Of a stretch of DNA of 64,000 nt, positions 20,472-51,610 are shown in pieces (position 1 is the first letter of the stretch; each line of letters opens with the position of its first letter). The stretch lies in the IMG/VR virus record IMGVR_UViG_3300035138_000114. The stretch is one strand, 5' to 3'. A model generated the notes under the pieces. The model was not told the origin of the DNA. It did no database searches and saw only the letters and a list, made by a program, of their open reading frames with translations. This DNA is from a virus. A program made the position numbers and the translations under genes.

Positions 20472-20745
20472 CGCTCTTTCGACCGCGCACTAACTCCCTG
20501 AAAATCATAACTATTTTTATGAAAAGCCCCTGAGATCGGGAAAGATGCTTCGCGCATCCCCAATCGACGGGGCTTTTTCTTTGACTTCTTGCTTCTTGAT
20601 CACCGCCCCGAGTTTTTCACGATCTTTGGCACAAGGAAGCCTCTTCGACGCCTTTAGGCAGAGGAGGAATTGTGCCCAAAAATTTCTTAATTTTTGATGT
20701 TTTTTCATTGACAAAAACATTCAATGATGTAATCCTGACATTATT

Positions 20746-21654
20746 ATGAAAACAACCTTGAAAATCAAACTGATGCCAACAGAAACACAGCGTCAAGCAC
20801 TCCTGAAAACGATGGAACAGTTCAATAATGCTTGCAATGAAATTTCGCAGTTTGCATTTAATCAAAAATGCTTCGGCAAATTCAACATTCAGAAACAGGT
20901 GTATCATGACATAAAGTCGAAATATGGTCTGTCTGCTCAAATGGTTATCAGAGCTATTTCTAAGGTTGCTGAAAGTTATAAGGCTGATAAAAAGACATTG
21001 CATCAATTCAAAGAACACGGAGCAATAGTCTATGATCAACGGATTCTCTCGTATAAAGGACTGTCCCATGTAAGCATCTGGACAATTGAAAAACGACAAA
21101 AGGTTGCTATGGTTCTCGGTGACTATCAAAAAGCCCGTGTTGACCGTATCAAAGGACAAGCCGATCTTATCCTTGTCAAGGGAGTCTTCTTTTTGTTGGC
21201 GACTCTTGACTTGCCTGAACCTCCCACGACCTCCCCTCAAAAGTTTCTTGGGGTTGACCTGGGAATTATTAATATAGCAACTACCTCCGAAGGAGAGCAG
21301 TTCTCCGGCAAACAAGTTGATCAAATCCGCGAAAAGTATAGTCAATTGAGAAAAACTCTTCAAAGTACCGGCACAAAGTCGGCAAAACGGAAACTCAAGA
21401 AAATTGCTAAGAAAGAACAACGATTTCGCCGTGATGTAAACCACTGCATAAGCAAAACACTCGTTGAGAAAGCCAAACACACCTCTCAGGGAATTGTTCT
21501 TGAACACTTGAAAGGTATCCGCGAGAGGATCAGGGTACGGAAATCTCAGAGAAGCCGTCATCATGGCTGGTCGTTTTATCAATTGCAACAGTTCATTTGT
21601 TATAAAGCTATATTGGCAGGGGTTATCGTTCAGTTAGTAGTGCCTCGGAAATAG
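20746..21654 (+). pseudogene. tnpB: IS200/IS605 TnpB, C-terminally truncated
   Basis: FLGVDLGI.NIA (RuvC-I), IVLEHL (RuvC-II), WSFYQL..FI.YK; stops before the Zn finger and RuvC-III; left-end hairpin AAGCCTCTT..CCTTTAGG..AGAGG at about 20636-20675. Confidence 0.85.
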
Positions 21655-30976: not shown

Positions 30977-31798
30977 ATGAAAACGTCAAAAACGTTGTTT
31001 ATCCTTACCTGTGTCCTTGTAATGGGCATTTTGGTAGCCTGCGCGGAGCTATTAGATGACATCGGAGATTTTATTGACACATTACCTGATCCGGAAACGA
31101 CACCGACACCTGGACCAGAAGAAACGCCGACGCCGACAGAGACCCCGTTACCGACTGTAACGCCAGAGCCAACCGAAACTCCTGAGATTCCGACTCCCAC
31201 ACCGACCGCTACGCCGGTGCCACTCCCCGATAATGTGTTTTTTATCGGATTTGATCAGGCAGAAACACGGTATGGAAAAGTTAAAGACGGGGTTTATACT
31301 ACAGAATCCCGCTGGTGGTATGCACACTGGGAGATTCCGACAACGGCTTCCGGGTATATCGAATTTACGGCAAAAGGCTTTCAACAGGACGAACTATACG
31401 GGGGAACAGAGTTTAAGAGTGTTCTGGTGTCAATGTGGTCGGGCGAAGACGGCTATGATTACGCCAATGCTCCGTATATCTTTGAAATTCGGAAATATGG
31501 CTTTATCAAAGACCGTCCAGACGCTTCAAACGCCTTTAAAGCAAAGATCAAAAGCCGGGGAGAGTGGGAAGAAAGCGGTTACGTCACCAGAGATTGGGAT
31601 CCCGAAAAAGAATATCATTTCCGGATCGAGTGGGGGAATTCAACCGTTTTAGTGTTCAGAGACGGAGAGCATGTCTTGACAGGGCAGTATAATGGGCCGT
31701 TTGCTCCGACAAAACATCAAATCCAACTGGGAGCTAACCCACGGCGTTATGCCCCAAAAGGTCTGGTTATTTCAAACGTAATCATCGGGAAAAAGTAG
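30977..31798 (+). CDS. lipoprotein with Pro/Thr-rich linker and beta-sandwich (LamG/ConA-like) domain
   Basis: Signal peptide with LVAC lipobox; (PTE)n linker; YHFRIEW..V.V.RDG. Confidence 0.6.
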   Translation: MKTSKTLFILTCVLVMGILVACAELLDDIGDFIDTLPDPETTPTPGPEETPTPTETPLPTVTPEPTETPEIPTPTPTATPVPLPDNVFFIGFDQAETRYGKVKDGVYTTESRWWYAHWEIPTTASGYIEFTAKGFQQDELYGGTEFKSVLVSMWSGEDGYDYANAPYIFEIRKYGFIKDRPDASNAFKAKIKSRGEWEESGYVTRDWDPEKEYHFRIEWGNSTVLVFRDGEHVLTGQYNGPFAPTKHQIQLGANPRRYAPKGLVISNVIIGKK

Positions 31799-31799
31799 G

Positions 31800-31905
31800 C
31801 TTTCAATCTCTAAAAAGAGTTTGGAGGAAGAGTCACACTTCCCACGCTGGACGTGAAATACGCCACATAGCCGGTCAGCCTATAGGCTTTCCGGGTACTT
31901 GTAAT
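31800..31905 (-). ncRNA. stand-alone natural single-guide RNA scaffold (copy A)
   Basis: 32-nt core identical to the tracrRNA; ends in CTCT-TTTT-AGAG-ATTGAAAG. Confidence 0.7.
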
Positions 31906-31909
31906 TCCC

Positions 31910-31939
31910 ATATTACATACAAGTAATATCTGTTGTCAA
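31910..31939 (-). promoter_or_regulatory. sigma70-like promoter of copy A
   Basis: TTGACA-18 nt-TAATAT, same layout as the tracrRNA promoter at 40441-40470. Confidence 0.6.
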
Positions 31940-38517: not shown

Positions 38518-38889
38518 TCATTCTCCCTCCTGGTTTTCTTCTTGTAGCGGGCACCAATAGTTTCTCAAGAACTGGGCAAAAGTTGTCGAAATACAGAAGT
38601 TAATAACAGGCGAAGCCGGGATGGTTCTCATCTGTTTAACCTCTCCCCCAGTTTTATTAAAGGTTTCAATGTCAAATCGGGAATGTGCCCGCCGATTTGT
38701 TAAGGAAATGACTCCTAAATGTTTCCATGTAAATTTAGGAGATTCAAACAATAGTTCCACAAGTGCTTGTGAAAAAGCCCCGATTACCTTCTTGACCGTC
38801 CCTCGGGGAAGGCCAGTTTTTTCCATTATCCTGTCAACTACCGGTTTACTTGCTTCCCATTTTTTGGGATAAATTGGAATATCCTTCAT
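38518..38889 (-). CDS. HU/IHF-like DNA-binding protein
   Basis: V..I..KTGL....V..VI..F...L.E.L, LG.I....R, IPA...I.F pattern. Confidence 0.65.
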   Translation of the reverse strand: MKDIPIYPKKWEASKPVVDRIMEKTGLPRGTVKKVIGAFSQALVELLFESPKFTWKHLGVISLTNRRAHSRFDIETFNKTGGEVKQMRTIPASPVINFCISTTFAQFLRNYWCPLQEENQEGE

Positions 38890-39515
38890 AATGTTTTATT
38901 CCTTTCTTTCGCTTTACTTTCAGTCTCTTTCAGAGATTTCTTTCTTTTGCGTAAACGGTGTAACCCGCTGTCCTCGATACGTCTTACCCATTCACGGCAA
39001 ACTGAAAAAATCCGGCTTATTTGTTCTAACGTGTAGCCTTTATCCTCTCCAAATGAAGACAAAAGCCGATACCGGGCTAAAAGGCAATAAATCTCTCTGT
39101 TAACTCCGGGAGTTTTTTGCCAGTATTGACAAGTCCGGTAAGGACACTGTTCTTTCCGAAATTCGGCATGGATTTTCTCAATGGGTAATAATAAAATTTC
39201 ATCTCTCACCGCCCGTGAACACTTGTAAATAATAGAAACCCATGTCCGGTTTTCCCGTTTCATCAAAGGTTCTTTCTGTCCGAAGTTCAGAGCAAAAAGA
39301 TCAACATAAAGCACATTGAAAGAAGTATCTAAAGTAATAGGAAGTTTCCCTAGTCTAAACGGATTATATTGATCTTTGGATAATTCAATCGTGTCTTGTG
39401 TTGTATAGTCAATGATTATGTAATTTTGGAAGCTCAAATGTGTCCGTGTCGGGAGAGAACATATTTCTTGGTTTCTATTAAGAATCATTTTAAAGAAGTA
39501 TCCAAAGTCTTTCAA
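38886..39515 (-). CDS. sigma70 region-4-like HTH protein with Cys motif
   Basis: YTLEQIS.IFSVCREWVRRIE..GL.RLR; CPYRTC..W...C; start may be ATG at 39488. Confidence 0.7.
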   Translation of the reverse strand: MKDFGYFFKMILNRNQEICSLPTRTHLSFQNYIIIDYTTQDTIELSKDQYNPFRLGKLPITLDTSFNVLYVDLFALNFGQKEPLMKRENRTWVSIIYKCSRAVRDEILLLPIEKIHAEFRKEQCPYRTCQYWQKTPGVNREIYCLLARYRLLSSFGEDKGYTLEQISRIFSVCREWVRRIEDSGLHRLRKRKKSLKETESKAKERNKTL

Positions 39516-40128
39516 TCCCTTTCAGAGATTTATTAGCTTTTCTACATGGAAATAAACCGGGAACGCCTAACAGACCAATATCTTTCAATCCCTTTCAGAG
39601 ATTTATTAGCTTTTCTACGCACGTTAAGGAGAAAATTATGAACCAATTACTTCAACCTTTCAATCCCTTTCAGAGATTTATTAGCTTTTCTACCAAATCT
39701 ATAATCTGGAATCTGCTATCTATCAGCGGCTTTCAATCCCTTTCAGAGATTTATTAGCTTTTCTACTTGGGCGTCCTGGCGAGGGCGCCTTTTTTATGCC
39801 CCCTTTCAATCCCTTTCAGAGATTTATTAGCTTTTCTACGCGATTGTTGACGGGCAAACAGGGGATATTCTGGTACTTTCAATCCCTTTCAGAGATTTAT
39901 TAGCTTTTCTACTCAATGACGGGCTATTCCCGTCAACGGTATGGGACTTTCAATCCCTTTCAGAGATTTATTAGCTTTTCTACTCAACCGGGCTTCCTGG
40001 ACAGTTAACGAATCCCGGTCCTTTCAATCCCTTTCAGAGATTTATTAGCTTTTCTACAGCATTACAAGCAGAATTTGCCGGGTATGAGAAGCTTTCAATC
40101 CCTTTCAGAGATTTATTAGCTTTTCTAC
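39509..40128 (-). CRISPR. CRISPR array: 9 identical 37-bp repeats, 8 spacers of 34-38 bp
   Basis: Repeat on - strand GTAGAAAAGCTAATAAATCTCTGAAAGGGATTGAAAG; + strand starts 39509, 39582, 39657, 39730, 39803, 39876, 39947, 40021, 40092; orientation inferred from the ATTGAAAG 3' end. Confidence 0.98.
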
Positions 40129-40335: not shown

Positions 40336-40436
40336 GCAATCTCTGAAAGCGTTCGGAGGAAGGGAAAACCCTCCCACACTGGACGTGAAATACGCCACAT
40401 AGCCGGTCAGTATCATACTTTCCGGGTACTTGTAAT
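40336..40436 (-). ncRNA. tracrRNA (copy B)
   Basis: Anti-repeat CTTTCAGAGATT (40338-40349) complementary to repeat AATCTCTGAAAG; promoter TTGACA(40465-40470)-18 nt-TAATAT(40441-40446). Confidence 0.8.
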
Positions 40437-40466
40437 TCCCATATTACTTGTATGAAATATCCGTTG

Positions 40467-42302
40467 TCAAGAAATTTCTGATAATTTTATTATTTTAGGT
40501 GAGCGTAAACAAGCAAGGAATTGGCTACGATCCCCTTGCCAATTTCCGCTTTTTACGGCGATATTAGCGGCTCCGTTACAATCGGCGTTAACATGAGTCC
40601 CGTTATTTGTCTGGTATAGTCCTCGTTTCCTGCGTTTTTTTAATGATTTGGAAAATGTATGGAGTTCGTTGCTTCCATCATACGTAGGAATCTCCATATA
40701 ATCCAAAAAAGAACATAAAGATGTGAAACTTTCTTCATGTTCAATATAAGCTATTCCTTCCGGCTCGCAGGCATATTTTAGATAATTCCGTAACTGTAAA
40801 AACGGGATTTGCACAAAATTTTGAGTATTCCGTTTCCCTATATTTACACCTTGTTTCCATCCGACGTTCACCCCAACAACAACCGTATTGATGTGATGCT
40901 TAACGCAGTAATCTACAATATATCTGGCAACCTGTTGCATGATATATTCAATTTTGGCATTCCGGCGACGGGTGATTCGGTAAAGCTGCCGTGACTGTGG
41001 AAATTTGTGAGATTGAGTCGAAAACGGGACAACCAATTGTTGCCATTGCTTCTGTTCATCTCCTGTTAAATGACATGCTAAAATGAGTTTTTGCGCTGTG
41101 GCAAAAGACTGTCCACAAAGTTGTTTATACCGTAATAATAGGTCATCAGGAAGAACGGTTTGTAAAAGTTGGATACTCTCTTCAGTTACACTATATTTTG
41201 AACGAGGATCTTGATCTGCCATACATTCCCGTAATCGGGCACATTCTTTATTCCAAAACCAATTGATTGATTTGACAGAAGATCCTTTGAATAAAAACGC
41301 GAATGGAGTCTCCATGTCCACACAGGCCGCAAGATTATTAACCCCAAGATCAATTCCCATTATCCTTATGCTGTCAGGCGTTGTAGTTGTCGGAACAGAT
41401 GCTTGGTATGTCAATGATACCGAAAACTCTTCACTCCGAAATTTCGGAGTAATTTGAAGTTTCCGAATATCATTAAATTGAAGCCACTCAGGGATCGGGA
41501 TACAAATTGGTGTAAAGCCTTTATCTTTAAGCGTTTTTGAAAGGCTTAGGCGTAATGTTCGGTCATCAACTTTAACGAACCCATTCCCTATTTCGGCGAT
41601 AATTCGTCCGAATGGTGGAGCTTGATCACTTCTATGGTTTTCGCCTAAATAATGCTGGTCTTTTTTATATCCTGGAATTCGTGGAGCATCACGATACTTC
41701 TTCTTTTTTTGCTCTGCCCGAAGCTGTAAGAAAGAAAGGTGGTGCTTCTGCAAATATTTCCAGATACTTTTATCATAATTCCGTATATCTTTAACAGCTT
41801 GATCTACCATATAATGGGCGGTTTTGCTAGATATTTCAAAGTGAACCCGTGTAGACTCCCGGTGTCGAAGCACTTTTGAATCTAACGTATAGGTTGTCAG
41901 AAACCTATCGTAATATTGGCAAGATTCAAAGATTTTCTCTCCATACACGGTCATTTCAGACCGTGATAAACACTCTTTGAGGTGTTCTTCAAACTCTGAA
42001 CGGAATACCTTGCGCTTGGTAATTGGACGCAATTTAGCCCGTATTTCTTCAGGAACCGCCAGTTGTGCGATCTTATTTTTTGACAATGAATATCGGAGTG
42101 TTTCAAACTGCTCTTTACATGGGCATACCAGGCAATCAGGGCAGTCAGGGATTATTGACGGGTTAATATAATGCTGCCGACAACACCATAATGCCGCATT
42201 ATAGATTCTTGCGGCATGGATACAGAGTAGTGTTAAATGTTCCCGGTCTTGTTTCGACAGATTTGTTAAGGCAATTTTAATGGTTCTTGCTGCTAATTCC
42301 AT
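40467..42302 (-). CDS. compact TnpB-derived type V CRISPR effector (Cas12-like, 611 aa)
   Basis: RuvC-I IMGIDLGVNNLA; RuvC-II position VVVGVNVGWKQ; NFVQIPF..L..L.Y; EESFTS; RuvC-III NADCNGAANI; adjacent tracr and array. Confidence 0.85.
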   Translation of the reverse strand: MELAARTIKIALTNLSKQDREHLTLLCIHAARIYNAALWCCRQHYINPSIIPDCPDCLVCPCKEQFETLRYSLSKNKIAQLAVPEEIRAKLRPITKRKVFRSEFEEHLKECLSRSEMTVYGEKIFESCQYYDRFLTTYTLDSKVLRHRESTRVHFEISSKTAHYMVDQAVKDIRNYDKSIWKYLQKHHLSFLQLRAEQKKKKYRDAPRIPGYKKDQHYLGENHRSDQAPPFGRIIAEIGNGFVKVDDRTLRLSLSKTLKDKGFTPICIPIPEWLQFNDIRKLQITPKFRSEEFSVSLTYQASVPTTTTPDSIRIMGIDLGVNNLAACVDMETPFAFLFKGSSVKSINWFWNKECARLRECMADQDPRSKYSVTEESIQLLQTVLPDDLLLRYKQLCGQSFATAQKLILACHLTGDEQKQWQQLVVPFSTQSHKFPQSRQLYRITRRRNAKIEYIMQQVARYIVDYCVKHHINTVVVGVNVGWKQGVNIGKRNTQNFVQIPFLQLRNYLKYACEPEGIAYIEHEESFTSLCSFLDYMEIPTYDGSNELHTFSKSLKKRRKRGLYQTNNGTHVNADCNGAANIAVKSGNWQGDRSQFLACLRSPKIIKLSEIS

Positions 42303-42771: not shown

Positions 42772-42875
42772 CTCTGGCGCTCAGAATACCCTCCAAAATC
42801 GTTTGAAATTTCTTCCGAATATCTTCATAGGGGTTGGCGTTCCGAGTCCTTAGAATTGAAATCTGGTCGCCATTT
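42772..42875 (+). repeat. R2 dispersed repeat (degenerate)
   Basis: CTCTGGCGCTCAG...CATAGGGGTTGGC...TCCTTAGAATTGAAAT. Confidence 0.45.
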
Positions 42876-42919
42876 TTACGTCTGGACATTACTATACCCG
42901 AAACCTGGGCTTTCGTCTA

Positions 42920-47568: not shown

Positions 47569-47644
47569 TGGAGATTGGGGCGGGATTTGAACCCGCGATA
47601 AGGGATTTGCAGTCCCCTGCCTTAAGCCACTTGGCGACCCAATC
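47569..47644 (-). tRNA. tRNA-Cys(GCA)
   Basis: GATTGGG/CCCAATC acceptor stem, U discriminator, encoded CCA, anticodon loop CT-GCA-AA, GGTTCAAATCC T-arm. Confidence 0.93.
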
Positions 47645-49384: not shown

Positions 49385-50254
49385 TTAAACCGGATAAAGT
49401 TGAACCATTTTGATAAGTTCCCCGTCATATCGTTCATCCAGGGCACAGGTGTCTATTTCTGCAAATTCAAAGAACGCTTTCCCTTTTGTATCGAACCGGA
49501 GATCAACAGTACTGCCCGCCGCATGGATAAGTGGAATGTCATATTTCATTTCTTTCCGAGTCAATCTCTTATCCACATGTCTATGACCGAATAGAAGGAT
49601 GTCTACTTTTCCTGCAATAAGGTCTTTAAACGCCCGATCATCCTTCAACTTCAAAAAGAAGTTGTAATAAAATGGATGATGGTGAAGGAAAAGTACCGTA
49701 TAAAGGTTCGGACGGTCAAACTCTTCTAAATATGCGGCGATTTCTGCCCGTTGTTGCTCTCCTATCTCTCCTTGAGCAAAAAGCACGTCAAATCCGCCTA
49801 ATTCACCCGCCATTGAGTCAACTGACATAAAGACTACGCCGTTATCCGGATCTCCTGGGTCTACTATTGTATAAACAACGGGGAAGTCAGGACAGGAAGT
49901 GCTATTCATAGCATAAAAACCAAATCGTTCTAAGGCGATTCGTATTGCCCAGTTACCTTTAAACCCGTAATCATGATTACCTGGGCAGACATACACAACA
50001 AAGCCCACATTTCGGAGATTACGGAGTAGTTCACGGAGTCTCTGGTATTGATTTTGAGTGCCGCTTTCCACAATATCCCCGGTAATGATGATAATTGGGA
50101 GCATCTTAAATTCCTGATCTTCAGGAATCTTCCCGTTTTCAAGACCATGATCAAGTCCTGCATACATCTTAATCAAGCCCTGTACCAGCCACTCACATTT
50201 TAGCAAGTTCCATCCTTGCCCGATATGTAAATCCGACAAATGAATTATTTTCAT
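49385..50254 (-). CDS. calcineurin-like metallophosphoesterase
   Basis: HLSDLH, TGD, PGNHD, HH, GHRH. Confidence 0.88.
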   Translation of the reverse strand: MKIIHLSDLHIGQGWNLLKCEWLVQGLIKMYAGLDHGLENGKIPEDQEFKMLPIIIITGDIVESGTQNQYQRLRELLRNLRNVGFVVYVCPGNHDYGFKGNWAIRIALERFGFYAMNSTSCPDFPVVYTIVDPGDPDNGVVFMSVDSMAGELGGFDVLFAQGEIGEQQRAEIAAYLEEFDRPNLYTVLFLHHHPFYYNFFLKLKDDRAFKDLIAGKVDILLFGHRHVDKRLTRKEMKYDIPLIHAAGSTVDLRFDTKGKAFFEFAEIDTCALDERYDGELIKMVQLYPV

Positions 50255-50802
50255 TGCTTTTGTTCCTCCTGATCTTCTTCTGAATCTCCAAACCCCACGA
50301 TCTTCAACCATTCTTCGGCAGCCGTATGAAGTGAAGATGAAGAACAGATAAAAGGATTTTCACGATTTAACTGTTGACAAGCTTTTTTTGCTAACTGAAC
50401 ATGGAACGGAAGAATTGTTCCGCCAGGACGTCCTTCAAAGTTCTCAATTGCCCCGTGAAGTAACGCCATAGACCGGGCAGTCGGTTTTGTAAATCCGACT
50501 CCAAGAAACCATTTATACCGCCAGAATGTCCCGGCATTCTCTTGTTTCCAGACTGGATCATCTCTATGTGGTTTGATAAAGAGAAAAAGCAATGCCGGTT
50601 GACAGAGCAAGTCATATACCCAAAATCCCTGATGGCGGCAGAAACCAGGACGATAACATCCCCGGAAAAGTTCTCTGAATAATTGCCGTCCTGTTTGTCG
50701 CCAACGATTTCGGTTTTTGACACTACATTCAAGGGCGTTTCCAGCAATTTCAAGAAACTGGTTACGATAAAATTCTAACGTGTCCCATGTGTTCTTTTTC
50801 AC
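50251..50802 (-). CDS. hypothetical protein
   Basis: GAGG RBS with GTG start. Confidence 0.5.
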   Translation of the reverse strand: MKKNTWDTLEFYRNQFLEIAGNALECSVKNRNRWRQTGRQLFRELFRGCYRPGFCRHQGFWVYDLLCQPALLFLFIKPHRDDPVWKQENAGTFWRYKWFLGVGFTKPTARSMALLHGAIENFEGRPGGTILPFHVQLAKKACQQLNRENPFICSSSSLHTAAEEWLKIVGFGDSEEDQEEQKQ

Positions 50803-50834
50803 GGCATTTCCTCATCTTGTGATAGGGGAAGCTT

Positions 50835-50970
50835 CTTTCAATCCCTTTCAAAGGTTCTTTATTTGGCAATCTCTGAAAGCATTCGGAGGAAGGGAAAACC
50901 CTCCCACACTGGACGTGAAATACGCCACATAGCCGGTCAGCTTATAGACTTTCCGGGTACTTCTTATCCC
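50835..50970 (-). ncRNA. stand-alone natural single-guide RNA (copy C: tracr fused to repeat 3' half)
   Basis: Nearly identical to the tracrRNA, then a 17-nt loop, then TGAAAGGGATTGAAAG (exact last 16 nt of the CRISPR repeat). Confidence 0.8.
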
Positions 50971-51475
50971 CATAGTTGACAGCCGTGCCCGTATCTAATT
51001 CTGATACCGGGCGTTCCTCTCTATCATAGTCCAGTATGTGGGGTCTCCATTCAAGTTCCTCACCATCAGAAATGTCCTCTTCTTGCATCCGATCCGTCCG
51101 TTTTAAGGTAAACCAACGGGTACACTCGTTTTCCTGTTCTGTCCGGATCGAAGCGTTTTTCATCAGGCGATGGAGCCCCATTGTTGCCTCAATTAATGTG
51201 TCATATTCAAATTTTTCCGATCCATAATCCACGCTGGTCATAATGACCGTATGCGGCTGTAAAAGCTCCTCTTCTGCCTGAAACCCGAATTGTACCGGGG
51301 TTTCTGCCTTTAAGATTTCTTCTGATGTGAAAACTTCCTTCTTTCCATGTAAGATTTGTTTATTGACGGGCGAAGCTCCCCAAAAAACTGTTATTTGTTC
51401 TCCTGTTTGATCCCATTTACGGTGAACTTCGTAAACTATCCCGTCATAAATGAATTTTGTCCCGATTAAATTCAT
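50942..51475 (-). CDS. hypothetical protein; 3' end overlaps sgRNA copy C
   Basis: AAGGAG RBS; stop lies inside the scaffold. Confidence 0.55.
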   Translation of the reverse strand: MNLIGTKFIYDGIVYEVHRKWDQTGEQITVFWGASPVNKQILHGKKEVFTSEEILKAETPVQFGFQAEEELLQPHTVIMTSVDYGSEKFEYDTLIEATMGLHRLMKNASIRTEQENECTRWFTLKRTDRMQEEDISDGEELEWRPHILDYDREERPVSELDTGTAVNYGDKKYPESL

Positions 51476-51511: not shown

Positions 51512-51610
51512 CTCTGGCTCTCTGAGAGACGCCAGAAGACACGTTTAAAGTACAACCCCTATGAGTTATAGGGGTTGGCTCTCCGAGTCTTTACAATCGA
51601 AGTTTGGCGA
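51512..51610 (+). repeat. R2 dispersed repeat
   Basis: CTCTGGCTCTCTGAGAGACGCCA..AACCCCTATGAGTTATAGGGGTT. Confidence 0.65.

What the first reader, a model, noticed from the sequence alone, without database searches (positions are those of the whole stretch)
31780..31939. Second orphan guide RNA with its own promoter and a minimal omegaRNA-like 3' end
Seen in sequence: copy A keeps the TTGACA-18-TAATAT promoter, including the AAATTTCTTGA sequence that encodes the effector's last codons at copy B. It also keeps the invariant 32-nt core CTGGACGTGAAATACGCCACATAGCCGGTCAG. The repeat:anti-repeat duplex is collapsed to a 4-bp hairpin (CTCT-TTTT-AGAG) followed by ATTGAAAG. The following guide, CCTACTTTTTCCCGATGATT, is antisense to the stop-codon region of the convergent lipoprotein gene. 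Inference: an independently expressed, highly compact natural sgRNA.
Basis: partly seen in the sequence, partly recalled or inferred. Interest (0 to 1): 0.85.

Follow-up and report, generated by a model that had tools for sequence, protein, structure and literature searches.

The report
Orphan guide-RNA gene in a phage
A wetland phage that carries its own miniature CRISPR nuclease also carries extra stand-alone copies of that nuclease's helper RNA, each fused to a built-in guide. The copy examined here has its own promoter, but nothing shows yet that it is made or what it targets.

Summary
There is a TTGACA-18-TAATAT promoter, a scaffold sharing the invariant 32-nt core with the tracrRNA next to the 611-aa TnpB-derived effector, a CTCT-TTTT-AGAG hairpin, the repeat's last 8 nt (ATTGAAAG), and then sequence antisense to the stop of a convergent lipoprotein gene.

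- **Family:** copy A is one of four scaffold copies in this 132-kb virus record (A, tracr B, C, and D outside the window). A fifth (E) sits in near-identical relatives.
- **Selection on structure:** changes fall in hairpin tips and are partly compensatory.
- **Guide origin:** C, D and E are present or absent between sibling phages. Homology always resumes exactly at the scaffold|guide junction, and D is a clean 125-nt insertion. The guides are therefore flanking DNA, as in transposon omegaRNAs, not acquired spacers.
- **Weak points for A:** it has no empty allele and no second target. Hairpin 2 is irregular. A 97% relative has deleted A's 3' end together with the lipoprotein gene. A's 3' part also pairs with the CRISPR repeat almost as well as the real tracrRNA does.

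Verdict: A is probably an expressed single-guide or omegaRNA-like gene. An auxiliary tracrRNA or a decaying copy remain live rivals. No RNA data exist. The same first-reader pass noted copies B and C on this window; I found no matching report from other DNA.

The parts
31934..31939 (-). -35 hexamer TTGACA of promoter P_A. It sits inside the AAATTTCTTGACA motif shared with tracr B, L006 B' and the A locus of relatives L009 and L019.
31910..31915 (-). -10 hexamer TAATAT, 18 nt after the -35. It is the right arm of the inverted repeat ATATTAC-N6-GTAATAT (31929-31910), a possible operator. The 6-nt loop is exactly inverted relative to copies B and B'.
31820..31909 (-). Scaffold body: a 5' leader GGGAAUUAC, stem P1 (CCGG/CCGG) with a variable apical hairpin, the invariant core with P2 (GGCG-UAUUUCA-CGUC), hairpin 2 (irregular in A: GGAAG/CUUCC after a 1-nt register shift), and the linker CUCCAAA.
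31800..31822 (-). Collapsed repeat:anti-repeat element. It has a lower stem CAA/UUG and an upper stem CUCU-UUUU-AGAG, and it ends in ATTGAAAG, which equals the last 8 nt of the CRISPR repeat.
31780..31799 (-). Putative guide, i.e. the flanking DNA. It is antisense to the last codons and TAG stop of the lipoprotein (LamG-like) gene. No other match with 5 or fewer mismatches in 20 was found in the 132-kb genome.
30977..31798 (+). Convergent lipoprotein gene (273 aa from the ATG at 30977, lipobox LVAC). It is absent from near relatives and its best homologues are 44-56% identical bacterial proteins. A 12-nt direct repeat TGACTCTTCCTC (31835-31824 and 30977-30966, minus strand) brackets the gene plus A's 3' end. 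Relative L019 is deleted exactly between the TCTTCCTC copies.
40338..40470 (-). Copy B, the tracrRNA gene. It has the same promoter (-35 overlapping the effector stop) and an anti-repeat CTTTCAGAGATT (40349-40338) that pairs 12 of 12 with the repeat.
39509..40128 (-). CRISPR array of 9 identical 37-nt repeats ending GGGATTGAAAG and 8 spacers of 34-38 nt. Relatives L006 and L019 carry the same repeat but share no spacer.
40467..42302 (-). The 611-aa TnpB-derived effector. The RuvC D..E..D residues are conserved in the rearranged-glutamate arrangement, and there is no zinc finger.
50835..50975 (-). Copy C: scaffold, a cis hairpin with about 28 nt of the repeat, then ATTGAAAG. The guide starts at 50834 in the 5' UTR of ORF 50251-50802. 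The site is empty in relative L008, with homology resuming exactly at the guide.
42885..42917 (-). Empty site in this phage. Relatives (L006 and the X2/X3 contigs) carry orphan scaffold E here. Homology resumes exactly after ATTGAAAG.

Best explanation
Copy A is a stand-alone gene for an unsplit guide RNA of the phage's own TnpB-derived, CRISPR-associated (TranC-like type V) nuclease.

**Shown**
- A keeps a near-consensus promoter of a class this phage uses repeatedly.
- It keeps the whole conserved scaffold of the tracrRNA.
- It keeps a shortened version of the terminal hairpin, which in the CRISPR system is split into anti-repeat and repeat.
- It keeps the repeat's last 8 nt, directly abutting unique DNA.

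**Inferred**
- Host RNA polymerase starts near 31905 and makes an RNA of about 106 nt of scaffold plus guide.
- The 611-aa effector binds this RNA as it binds tracrRNA:crRNA.
- The roughly 20 nt after ATTGAAAG act as the guide.

As in transposon omegaRNAs, and as shown for sister copies C, D and E, the guide is simply the DNA next to the module. The phage's own copy is protected because the repeat end sits where the target-adjacent motif would be. A sibling genome carrying the same sequence without the module would be cut. That would exclude the competitor or copy the module into it by recombination repair.
For: - **Repeat family:** three exact cores lie in the window, none in any of 100 shuffles. 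A fourth copy is in the genome and a fifth in relatives.
- **Structure:** 93.9% of cells pair and 4 pairs show double changes. Only 5 of 500 shuffles do as well, and slid controls pair at 41-61%. Variation is confined to hairpin tips and the core is invariant.
- **Stem series:** the native anti-repeat pairs 12 of 12 with the repeat. C, D, E and A carry the same stem in cis at 12, 8, 7 and 4 bp, with the same lower stem and 8-10 nt to the guide.
- **Filled versus empty alleles:** D is a clean 125-nt insertion with no loss and no duplication. For C and E homology resumes exactly at the guide start.
- **Promoter logic:** only the antisense orphan has a promoter. The -35 motif is kept at the A locus in relatives whose neighbouring protein is 85% identical. 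TTCTTGACA occurs 14 times against 1.4 expected.
- **Effector:** the RuvC residues are intact. Arrays turn over between 97%-identical effectors, so the system is in use.
- **Ancestry:** the covariance model gives weak hits exactly at the 3' ends of related cyanobacterial TnpB genes. Their omegaRNAs have the same hairpin-plus-9-nt-then-flank design.
Against: - No RNA data exist for this phage.
- No target for A's guide was found in the genome, relatives, IMG/VR or JGI metagenomes. No protospacer was found for any of the six spacers scanned in IMG/VR, for either array in GenBank phages, or for the 21 spacers in the phage genome and fetched loci. The target-adjacent motif is therefore unknown.
- A's cis hairpin is weak (-5.2 kcal/mol), and hairpin 2 needs a register shift.
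- The 97% relative L019 and the X2 contig lack A's 3' hairpin, repeat end and guide. A is therefore dispensable and may be decaying.
- No empty allele exists for A itself.
- Identity of A and B from the -10 to GGAAAG could reflect recent gene conversion rather than selection.
- The covariation rests on only 6 related sequences.
Confidence: 0.5

Rival explanations
1. A is a second tracrRNA gene rather than a guide RNA. Its anti-repeat remnant pairs in trans with CRISPR repeats and supplies extra scaffold for crRNA maturation and loading. On this view the ATTGAAAG-plus-flank tail is irrelevant.
For: - The A 3' region pairs with the repeat at -22.1 kcal/mol, against -25.9 for tracr B. A's own hairpin is only -5.2, so trans pairing should win whenever pre-crRNA is present.
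- A has the same promoter as B.
- No target for the guide was found.
Against: - A shares the 12-nt AGAGATTGAAAG with orphan E. In E that segment is the repeat-derived arm, not the anti-repeat.
- Similarity to all other copies stops exactly at the repeat end.
- Relatives get by with tracr B alone.
Confidence: 0.2
2. A is a decaying duplicate of the tracr or orphan module with no present function. It would be kept only by recent gene conversion from B.
For: - The 3' hairpin is the shortest of the series, and hairpin 2 has two mismatches in the common register.
- The 3' end is deleted in L019 and X2 together with a non-conserved moron-like gene.
- The 5' part is identical to B, apart from three events in the promoter spacer.
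Against: - The core is 100% identical across relatives whose flanking intergenic DNA is about 80-85% identical.
- A register shift restores a perfect 5-bp hairpin 2.
- The lower stem, repeat end and promoter hexamers are all intact.
- The locus is occupied in three separate samples.
Confidence: 0.2
3. A acts mainly as an antisense or convergent-transcription regulator, or as a structural terminator, of the lipoprotein gene, independently of the nuclease.
For: - The transcript would run antisense across the stop codon into the gene, and no terminator lies within 400 nt.
- The module abuts the stop codon with 1 nt between.
Against: - This does not explain conservation of the scaffold core or the exact repeat end.
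- The sister copies lie in sense orientation between genes.
- No T-tract terminator is present on the + strand.
Confidence: 0.05

Closest known systems
TnpB omegaRNA (reRNA) of IS200/IS605-type elements, including stand-alone omegaRNA copies used in trans
   Same: - The scaffold is followed directly by a guide that is simply the flanking DNA.
- The terminal hairpin lies 8-10 nt before the guide.
- The canonical copy starts at the 3' end of the nuclease gene.
- Presence/absence alleles have exact junctions, and one is a clean insertion without target duplication.
- The 5' third resembles omegaRNAs of related cyanobacterial TnpBs.
   Different: - No TnpA and no recognisable left end were found.
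- The same nuclease also has a split tracrRNA and a turning-over CRISPR array.
- A has its own sigma-70-type promoter.
- C and E replace a few nucleotides rather than being simple insertions.
TranC (transposon-CRISPR intermediate) and compact type V systems such as Cas12f and Cas12n (Jin et al., Cell 2025, as cited in PMC13565253, PMC13639567 and bioRxiv 10.64898/2026.03.27.714800)
   Same: - A TnpB-sized-plus effector with an array and a tracrRNA but no adaptation genes nearby.
- Phage-borne examples exist.
- The repeat:anti-repeat duplex corresponds to the terminal omegaRNA hairpin, which fits the 'functional RNA splitting' idea.
   Different: - Here unsplit and split guide forms coexist in one natural genome, at several dispersed loci.
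- Clade membership was not tested. There are only sub-threshold Cas12f hits, and no relative above 40% identity apart from near-identical phages.
Natural single-guide RNAs: Cas9 tracr-L (bioRxiv 10.1101/2020.05.21.102756), phage vsgRNAs (bioRxiv 10.64898/2026.06.01.729453) and dCas12f/TldR gRNAs (PMC13472631)
   Same: - A compact scaffold-plus-guide encoded as one gene outside an array.
- Some are phage-borne.
- dCas12f gRNAs may also derive from repeat-spacer units, and some are encoded elsewhere in the genome.
   Different: - Those guides match a regulatory target (the cas9 promoter, susCD upstream regions). A's guide matches only its own locus.
- The effector here keeps its catalytic residues.
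- vsgRNAs hijack a host Cas9, whereas this phage encodes its own nuclease.
Delocalised or atypical crRNAs of type V-K CRISPR-associated transposons (recalled from memory: Saito et al., Cell 2021)
   Same: - A truncated-repeat guide encoded outside the array.
- The repeat ends in (G)TTGAAAG-like sequence.
- The effector lineage is related to cyanobacterial TnpBs.
   Different: - No Tn7-like genes are present.
- A carries the whole tracr scaffold in cis.
- The V-K homing guide has a tRNA target, whereas none was found here.

Membership tests
Natural single-guide RNA of the adjacent type V effector | Shares the scaffold of the effector's tracrRNA | tested here: met
   The 32-nt core is exact. The 81-column alignment has mean column identity 89% across 6 copies.
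Natural single-guide RNA of the adjacent type V effector | Repeat 3' end abuts a unique guide, with the repeat:anti-repeat duplex closed in cis | tested here: inconclusive
   ATTGAAAG is present and similarity stops there. The cis stem is only 4+3 bp (-5.2 kcal/mol) and is out-competed by trans pairing with the repeat.
Natural single-guide RNA of the adjacent type V effector | Expressed as a discrete RNA and bound by the effector | not testable with these tools
   No RNA run holds this phage. Promoter evidence only.
Natural single-guide RNA of the adjacent type V effector | Guide matches a target flanked by a consistent PAM/TAM | tested here: not met
   No match beyond the locus itself in the genome, fetched relatives, IMG/VR or JGI metagenomes. 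PAM unknown.
TnpB omegaRNA / OMEGA element | Guide equals the DNA flanking the element's right end (filled versus empty alleles) | tested here: inconclusive
   Met for sister copies C, D and E. No empty allele was found for A; relatives are either occupied or deleted.
TnpB omegaRNA / OMEGA element | Encoded at or overlapping the 3' end of its tnpB gene within an IS that has a left end and, for autonomous elements, tnpA | tested here: not met
   A lies 8.5 kb from the effector. No Y1 transposase is in the 132-kb genome. No left end was identified.
TnpB omegaRNA / OMEGA element | Scaffold homologous to omegaRNAs of related TnpBs | tested here: inconclusive
   Covariance-model hits are weak (E 0.4-2.6) but lie exactly at the 3' ends of three cyanobacterial TnpB genes, and only the first ~35 nt are clearly alike. 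Rfam gives no hit.
Type V CRISPR-Cas / TranC system (for the system A belongs to) | RuvC/TnpB-fold effector next to a CRISPR array, with a tracrRNA carrying an anti-repeat | tested here: met
   guided_TnpB 1.5e-29 and OrfB_IS605 3.2e-10. Nine perfect repeats. Anti-repeat pairs 12 of 12. Three arrays share no spacer.
Type V CRISPR-Cas / TranC system (for the system A belongs to) | Placement in a named Cas12 subtype or TranC clade | not tested
   No reference set was available. Only sub-threshold Cas12f/Cas12f2 matches. One distant relative (38% identity, same insertion) also has an array.
dCas12f-sigmaE RNA-guided transcription | Nuclease-dead effector | tested here: not met
   D (IDLG), E (EESFTS) and D (NADCN) are conserved as in active-type TnpB relatives.
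dCas12f-sigmaE RNA-guided transcription | Operonic ECF sigma factor, with guides matching sites upstream of target genes | tested here: inconclusive
   A protein with only sigma-70 region 4 follows the array. A's guide has no upstream-of-gene target. The array's terminal flank has an 18-19 of 20 match inside that sigma-like gene.

The most novel reading that the evidence does not exclude
One phage nuclease is served at the same time by two guide systems. The first is a split tracrRNA:crRNA system with a fast-turning CRISPR array. The second is several unsplit, omegaRNA-like single-guide modules that come and go between sibling phages, and whose guides are the DNA next to each insertion.

The orphans, A included, would then be hard-wired weapons or homing elements. 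They would cut sibling genomes that lack the insertion, and the carrier would be protected because the repeat end replaces the target-adjacent motif. This would be a living example of the transposon-to-CRISPR transition, with both guide modes functional in one genome.
Probability: 0.3. Interest if true: 0.88.

Novelty: new variant of a known kind. Interest (0 to 1): 0.68.

Why it matters
- **Evolution:** the locus places unsplit (omegaRNA-like) and split (tracrRNA plus crRNA) guide architectures for a single TnpB-derived nuclease in the same natural genome. Population-level insertion polymorphism shows that the unsplit guides are flanking DNA. This makes the proposed 'RNA splitting' route from transposon to type V CRISPR directly testable with natural parts.
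- **Phage biology:** it suggests phages may use hard-wired guides against close relatives.
- **Engineering:** the natural stem series (12, 8, 7 and 4 bp) is a ready-made truncation series for a compact 611-aa nuclease and its roughly 105-nt guide scaffold.

Tried and rejected
- **More scaffold copies:** exact-pattern scans for the scaffold core in IMG/VR and JGI metagenomes found nothing, and near relatives appear to be masked there. A repeat scan of GTDB genomes found nothing.
- **Protospacers and PAM:**
  - Six spacers gave no hit in IMG/VR.
  - The two arrays gave only a chance-level Lactococcus hit in GenBank phages.
  - All 21 spacers were compared with the phage genome and every fetched locus, and none matched.
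  - A YRTY motif 5' of four candidate target sites rests on n=4 and I do not rely on it.
- **Guide A targets:** none in IMG/VR or the metagenomes.
- **Rfam:** no family matches the scaffold.
- **RNA evidence:** no RNA run holds the phage.
- **Cas12k/CAST reading**, prompted by the TTGAAAG repeat end: rejected. No Tn7-like genes are present, and the neighbouring AAA+-like ORF gives only a weak Mg-chelatase hit.
- **dCas12f-sigma reading:** rejected for the effector because the catalytic residues are intact.
- **Scaffolds serving the other TnpBs:** rejected. The phage's five other TnpB genes show no BLASTP similarity to the effector, and none lies beside a scaffold copy.
- **Lipoprotein homologues:** their contigs are bacterial-looking and carry no scaffold.

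Full report
**Where and what.** The window is the reverse strand of G000:C1:2942-66941, a 132,054-bp IMG/VR virus record that CheckV rates 95% complete. It comes from a wetland metagenome.

On the minus strand the finding reads as follows:
- AAATTTC, then TTGACA (31939-31934), an 18-nt spacer and TAATAT (31915-31910).
- A scaffold of about 106 nt, down to 31800.
- The sequence antisense to the last codons and TAG stop (31796-31798) of a convergent lipoprotein gene.

The 32-nt core occurs three times in the window, with no match in any of 100 shuffles.

**The system it belongs to.**
- Copy B lies directly after a 611-aa ORF (40467-42302, minus strand). That ORF scores as a TnpB family protein: guided_TnpB 1.5e-29, plus OrfB_IS605 and a Cas12f-like TNB domain.
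- B carries a 12-nt anti-repeat that pairs perfectly with a 37-nt repeat. The repeat is present nine times in an array at 40128-39509.
- The effector has no relative above about 40% identity apart from near-identical phage copies. The rest of its homologues are ordinary 400-450-aa TnpBs, many of them cyanobacterial.
- It keeps D, E and D of RuvC in the rearranged-glutamate arrangement of its TnpB relatives, so it is probably an active nuclease.
- One distant relative (38% identity, sharing the same insertion) is also followed by CRISPR repeats.
- Three sibling arrays (own, L006, L019) have the identical repeat and no spacer in common, although the effectors are 97% identical. The array is therefore turning over.
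- This matches what recent literature calls TnpB-derived type V or TranC systems. I could not test clade membership.

**A family of orphan scaffolds.** Besides A and B the genome has two more copies, and relatives carry a fifth.
- Copy C lies at 50975-50835.
- Copy D lies outside the window, at L004:1442-1566 on the minus strand.
- Copy E sits just upstream of the effector gene in relatives: JGI contig L006, and the marsh-metagenome contigs X2 and X3 from two other studies. This phage has only 32 unrelated nucleotides at that site.
- All orphans end in ATTGAAAG, the last 8 nt of the repeat, and similarity between copies stops there.
- The terminal stem forms a series:
  - 12 bp in trans (B with crRNA).
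  - About 12 bp in cis, including about 28 nt of the repeat (C).
  - 8 bp with a GAUU loop (D).
  - 7 bp (E).
  - 4 bp (A).
- Every version has the same lower stem (C-R-A-A against U-U-G) and 8-10 nt before the guide.
- A shares AGAGATTGAAAG with E and looks like an E-type hairpin with its top deleted.

**Structure.** I counted pairs on six copies against a hand-drawn three-helix structure.
- 93.9% of cells pair.
- Four pairs show changes on both sides.
- Only 5 of 500 shuffles reach either the pairing or the covariation score.
- Slid controls pair at 41-61%.

RNAalifold finds the same helices. Variation is confined to hairpin tips and the core is invariant. With six related sequences this is suggestive, not proof.

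In A, hairpin 2 has two mismatches in the common register. A 1-nt shift gives a perfect GGAAG/CUUCC stem.

**The guides are flanking DNA.**
- Site D is empty in two relatives, L017 and L018. This phage has a clean 125-nt insertion between ...GGTGTT and ATGCGATAC..., with nothing lost and nothing duplicated.
- At site C, relative L008 lacks the module and homology resumes exactly at the guide's first base. L007 has a larger deletion.
- At site E the same exact junction is seen with the roles reversed.

This is the omegaRNA pattern, in which the guide is whatever lies beside the right end. It is not the CRISPR pattern of an acquired spacer.

The covariance model built from the scaffold gives weak hits (E 0.4-2.6). 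Those hits lie exactly at the 3' ends of three cyanobacterial TnpB genes. Their omegaRNAs share the first ~35 nt and the same design of terminal hairpin, 9 nt, then flank.

No Y1 transposase is encoded in the phage. The mechanism of spread is therefore open: a TnpA acting in trans, nuclease-triggered recombination, or spacer/protospacer recombination.

**What is specific to A.**
- A is the only orphan antisense to its neighbours and the only one with a promoter. C, D and E sit in sense orientation between genes and lack one.
- The promoter is a near copy of B's. A 7-bp inverted repeat overlaps the -10, and its 6-nt loop is exactly inverted between A and B.
- TTCTTGACA occurs 14 times in the genome against 1.4 expected, usually behind an A/T-rich stretch. 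This is a promoter type the phage uses.
- The A locus is occupied in three other samples. There the -35 motif and the core are kept, while the surrounding intergenic DNA is about 80-85% identical.
- The 97% relative L019, and the X2 contig, have a deletion between two TCTTCCTC copies. It removes A's 3' hairpin, repeat end and guide together with the whole lipoprotein gene.
- That gene has no close relative, and its best hits are 44-56% identical bacterial proteins. A's 3' half and its guide are therefore dispensable and sit at the edge of a variable cargo region.
- No empty allele and no second target for the guide were found.
- A's 3' region pairs with the CRISPR repeat at -22.1 kcal/mol, against -25.9 for tracr B, while its own hairpin is worth only -5.2. 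It could therefore act as a spare tracrRNA.

**Verdict.**

| Reading | My odds |
|---|---|
| Transcribed single-guide / omegaRNA-like gene for the phage's own nuclease | about 0.5 |
| Auxiliary tracrRNA | 0.2 |
| Decaying copy with no function | 0.2 |
| Antisense regulator of the lipoprotein gene | 0.05 |

For the sister copies, the function that fits best is cutting of sibling genomes that lack the insertion, giving exclusion or homing. For A this is inference only. Expression, effector binding and the target-adjacent motif are all untested, because no RNA runs hold this phage and no protospacer was found.

Natural single guides are already known for Cas9 (tracr-L and phage vsgRNAs) and for dCas12f and TldR. 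Stand-alone omegaRNAs are known from OMEGA systems (from memory). I therefore rate this a new variant of a known kind. What is new is the coexistence of split and unsplit guides for one nuclease, together with insertion polymorphism among sibling phages.

Noticed in passing
G000:C1:104510-104634 (-), = L004:1442-1566 (-), outside the window: Fourth scaffold copy D. It is a clean 125-nt insertion relative to L017 and L018. Its guide begins with the ATG of an 81-aa ORF, and the repeat-like arm supplies an AAGGA ribosome-binding site.
   Followed up: yes
window 39508-39489 and 39335-39316 (-): The 20 nt after the array's last repeat overlap the start of the sigma-70-region-4 ORF. They match 18 of 20 a site 173 nt downstream in the same gene, and 19 of 20 in relative L019, with the 5' flank CCTATT. 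This could be a self-directed terminal guide or a relic of an old junction.
   Followed up: partly
window ~38918-38943 (-): A degenerate repeat-like 26-mer (23 of 26 to the CRISPR repeat) lies inside the 3' end of the sigma-like ORF, just before the ATG of the HU-like gene (38518-38889). The sigma-like gene may therefore sit between two repeats.
   Followed up: partly
G000:C1 71511-72692 (+), 92953-94119 (+), 123709-124827 (-), 1-820 (-), 45288-46214 (-) (= window ~20728-21654, +): Five further TnpB genes in the phage, three of them with CxxC zinc-finger motifs. None shows BLASTP similarity to the CRISPR-associated effector, and no Y1 TnpA is found in the genome.
   Followed up: partly
L006:5290-5480: In the 97% relative, an insert of about 190 nt flanked by AAAATTA(T)TCAG repeats separates the effector stop from the tracrRNA promoter, and the effector ends with 7 different residues.
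   Followed up: no
window 42827-42866 and 51568-51607, plus a third copy elsewhere in the genome (X1 record 5): A 40-nt repeated element (83% identity) lies just downstream of the E site and upstream of the gene before copy C. Its function is unknown.
   Followed up: no
whole genome, e.g. window 32052, 5715, 1030, 948: TTCTTGACA occurs 14 times against 1.4 expected, mostly behind A/T-rich tracts. This looks like a phage promoter class, and several copies are followed by TAATAT or TTAGAGT about 17 nt downstream.
   Followed up: partly
L011:1383-1520: A GC-rich distant relative of the effector (38% identity, sharing the 75-aa insertion) is followed by 37-nt CRISPR repeats ending GATTGCAAC. The effector family is therefore CRISPR-associated in at least two lineages.
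   Followed up: partly
window 47572-47644 (-): A tRNA gene (Rfam 62.8 bits) lies within the gene cluster between the effector and copy C. The marsh-metagenome contigs lose alignment at its two edges (loose ends at 47579-47583 and 47624).
   Followed up: no
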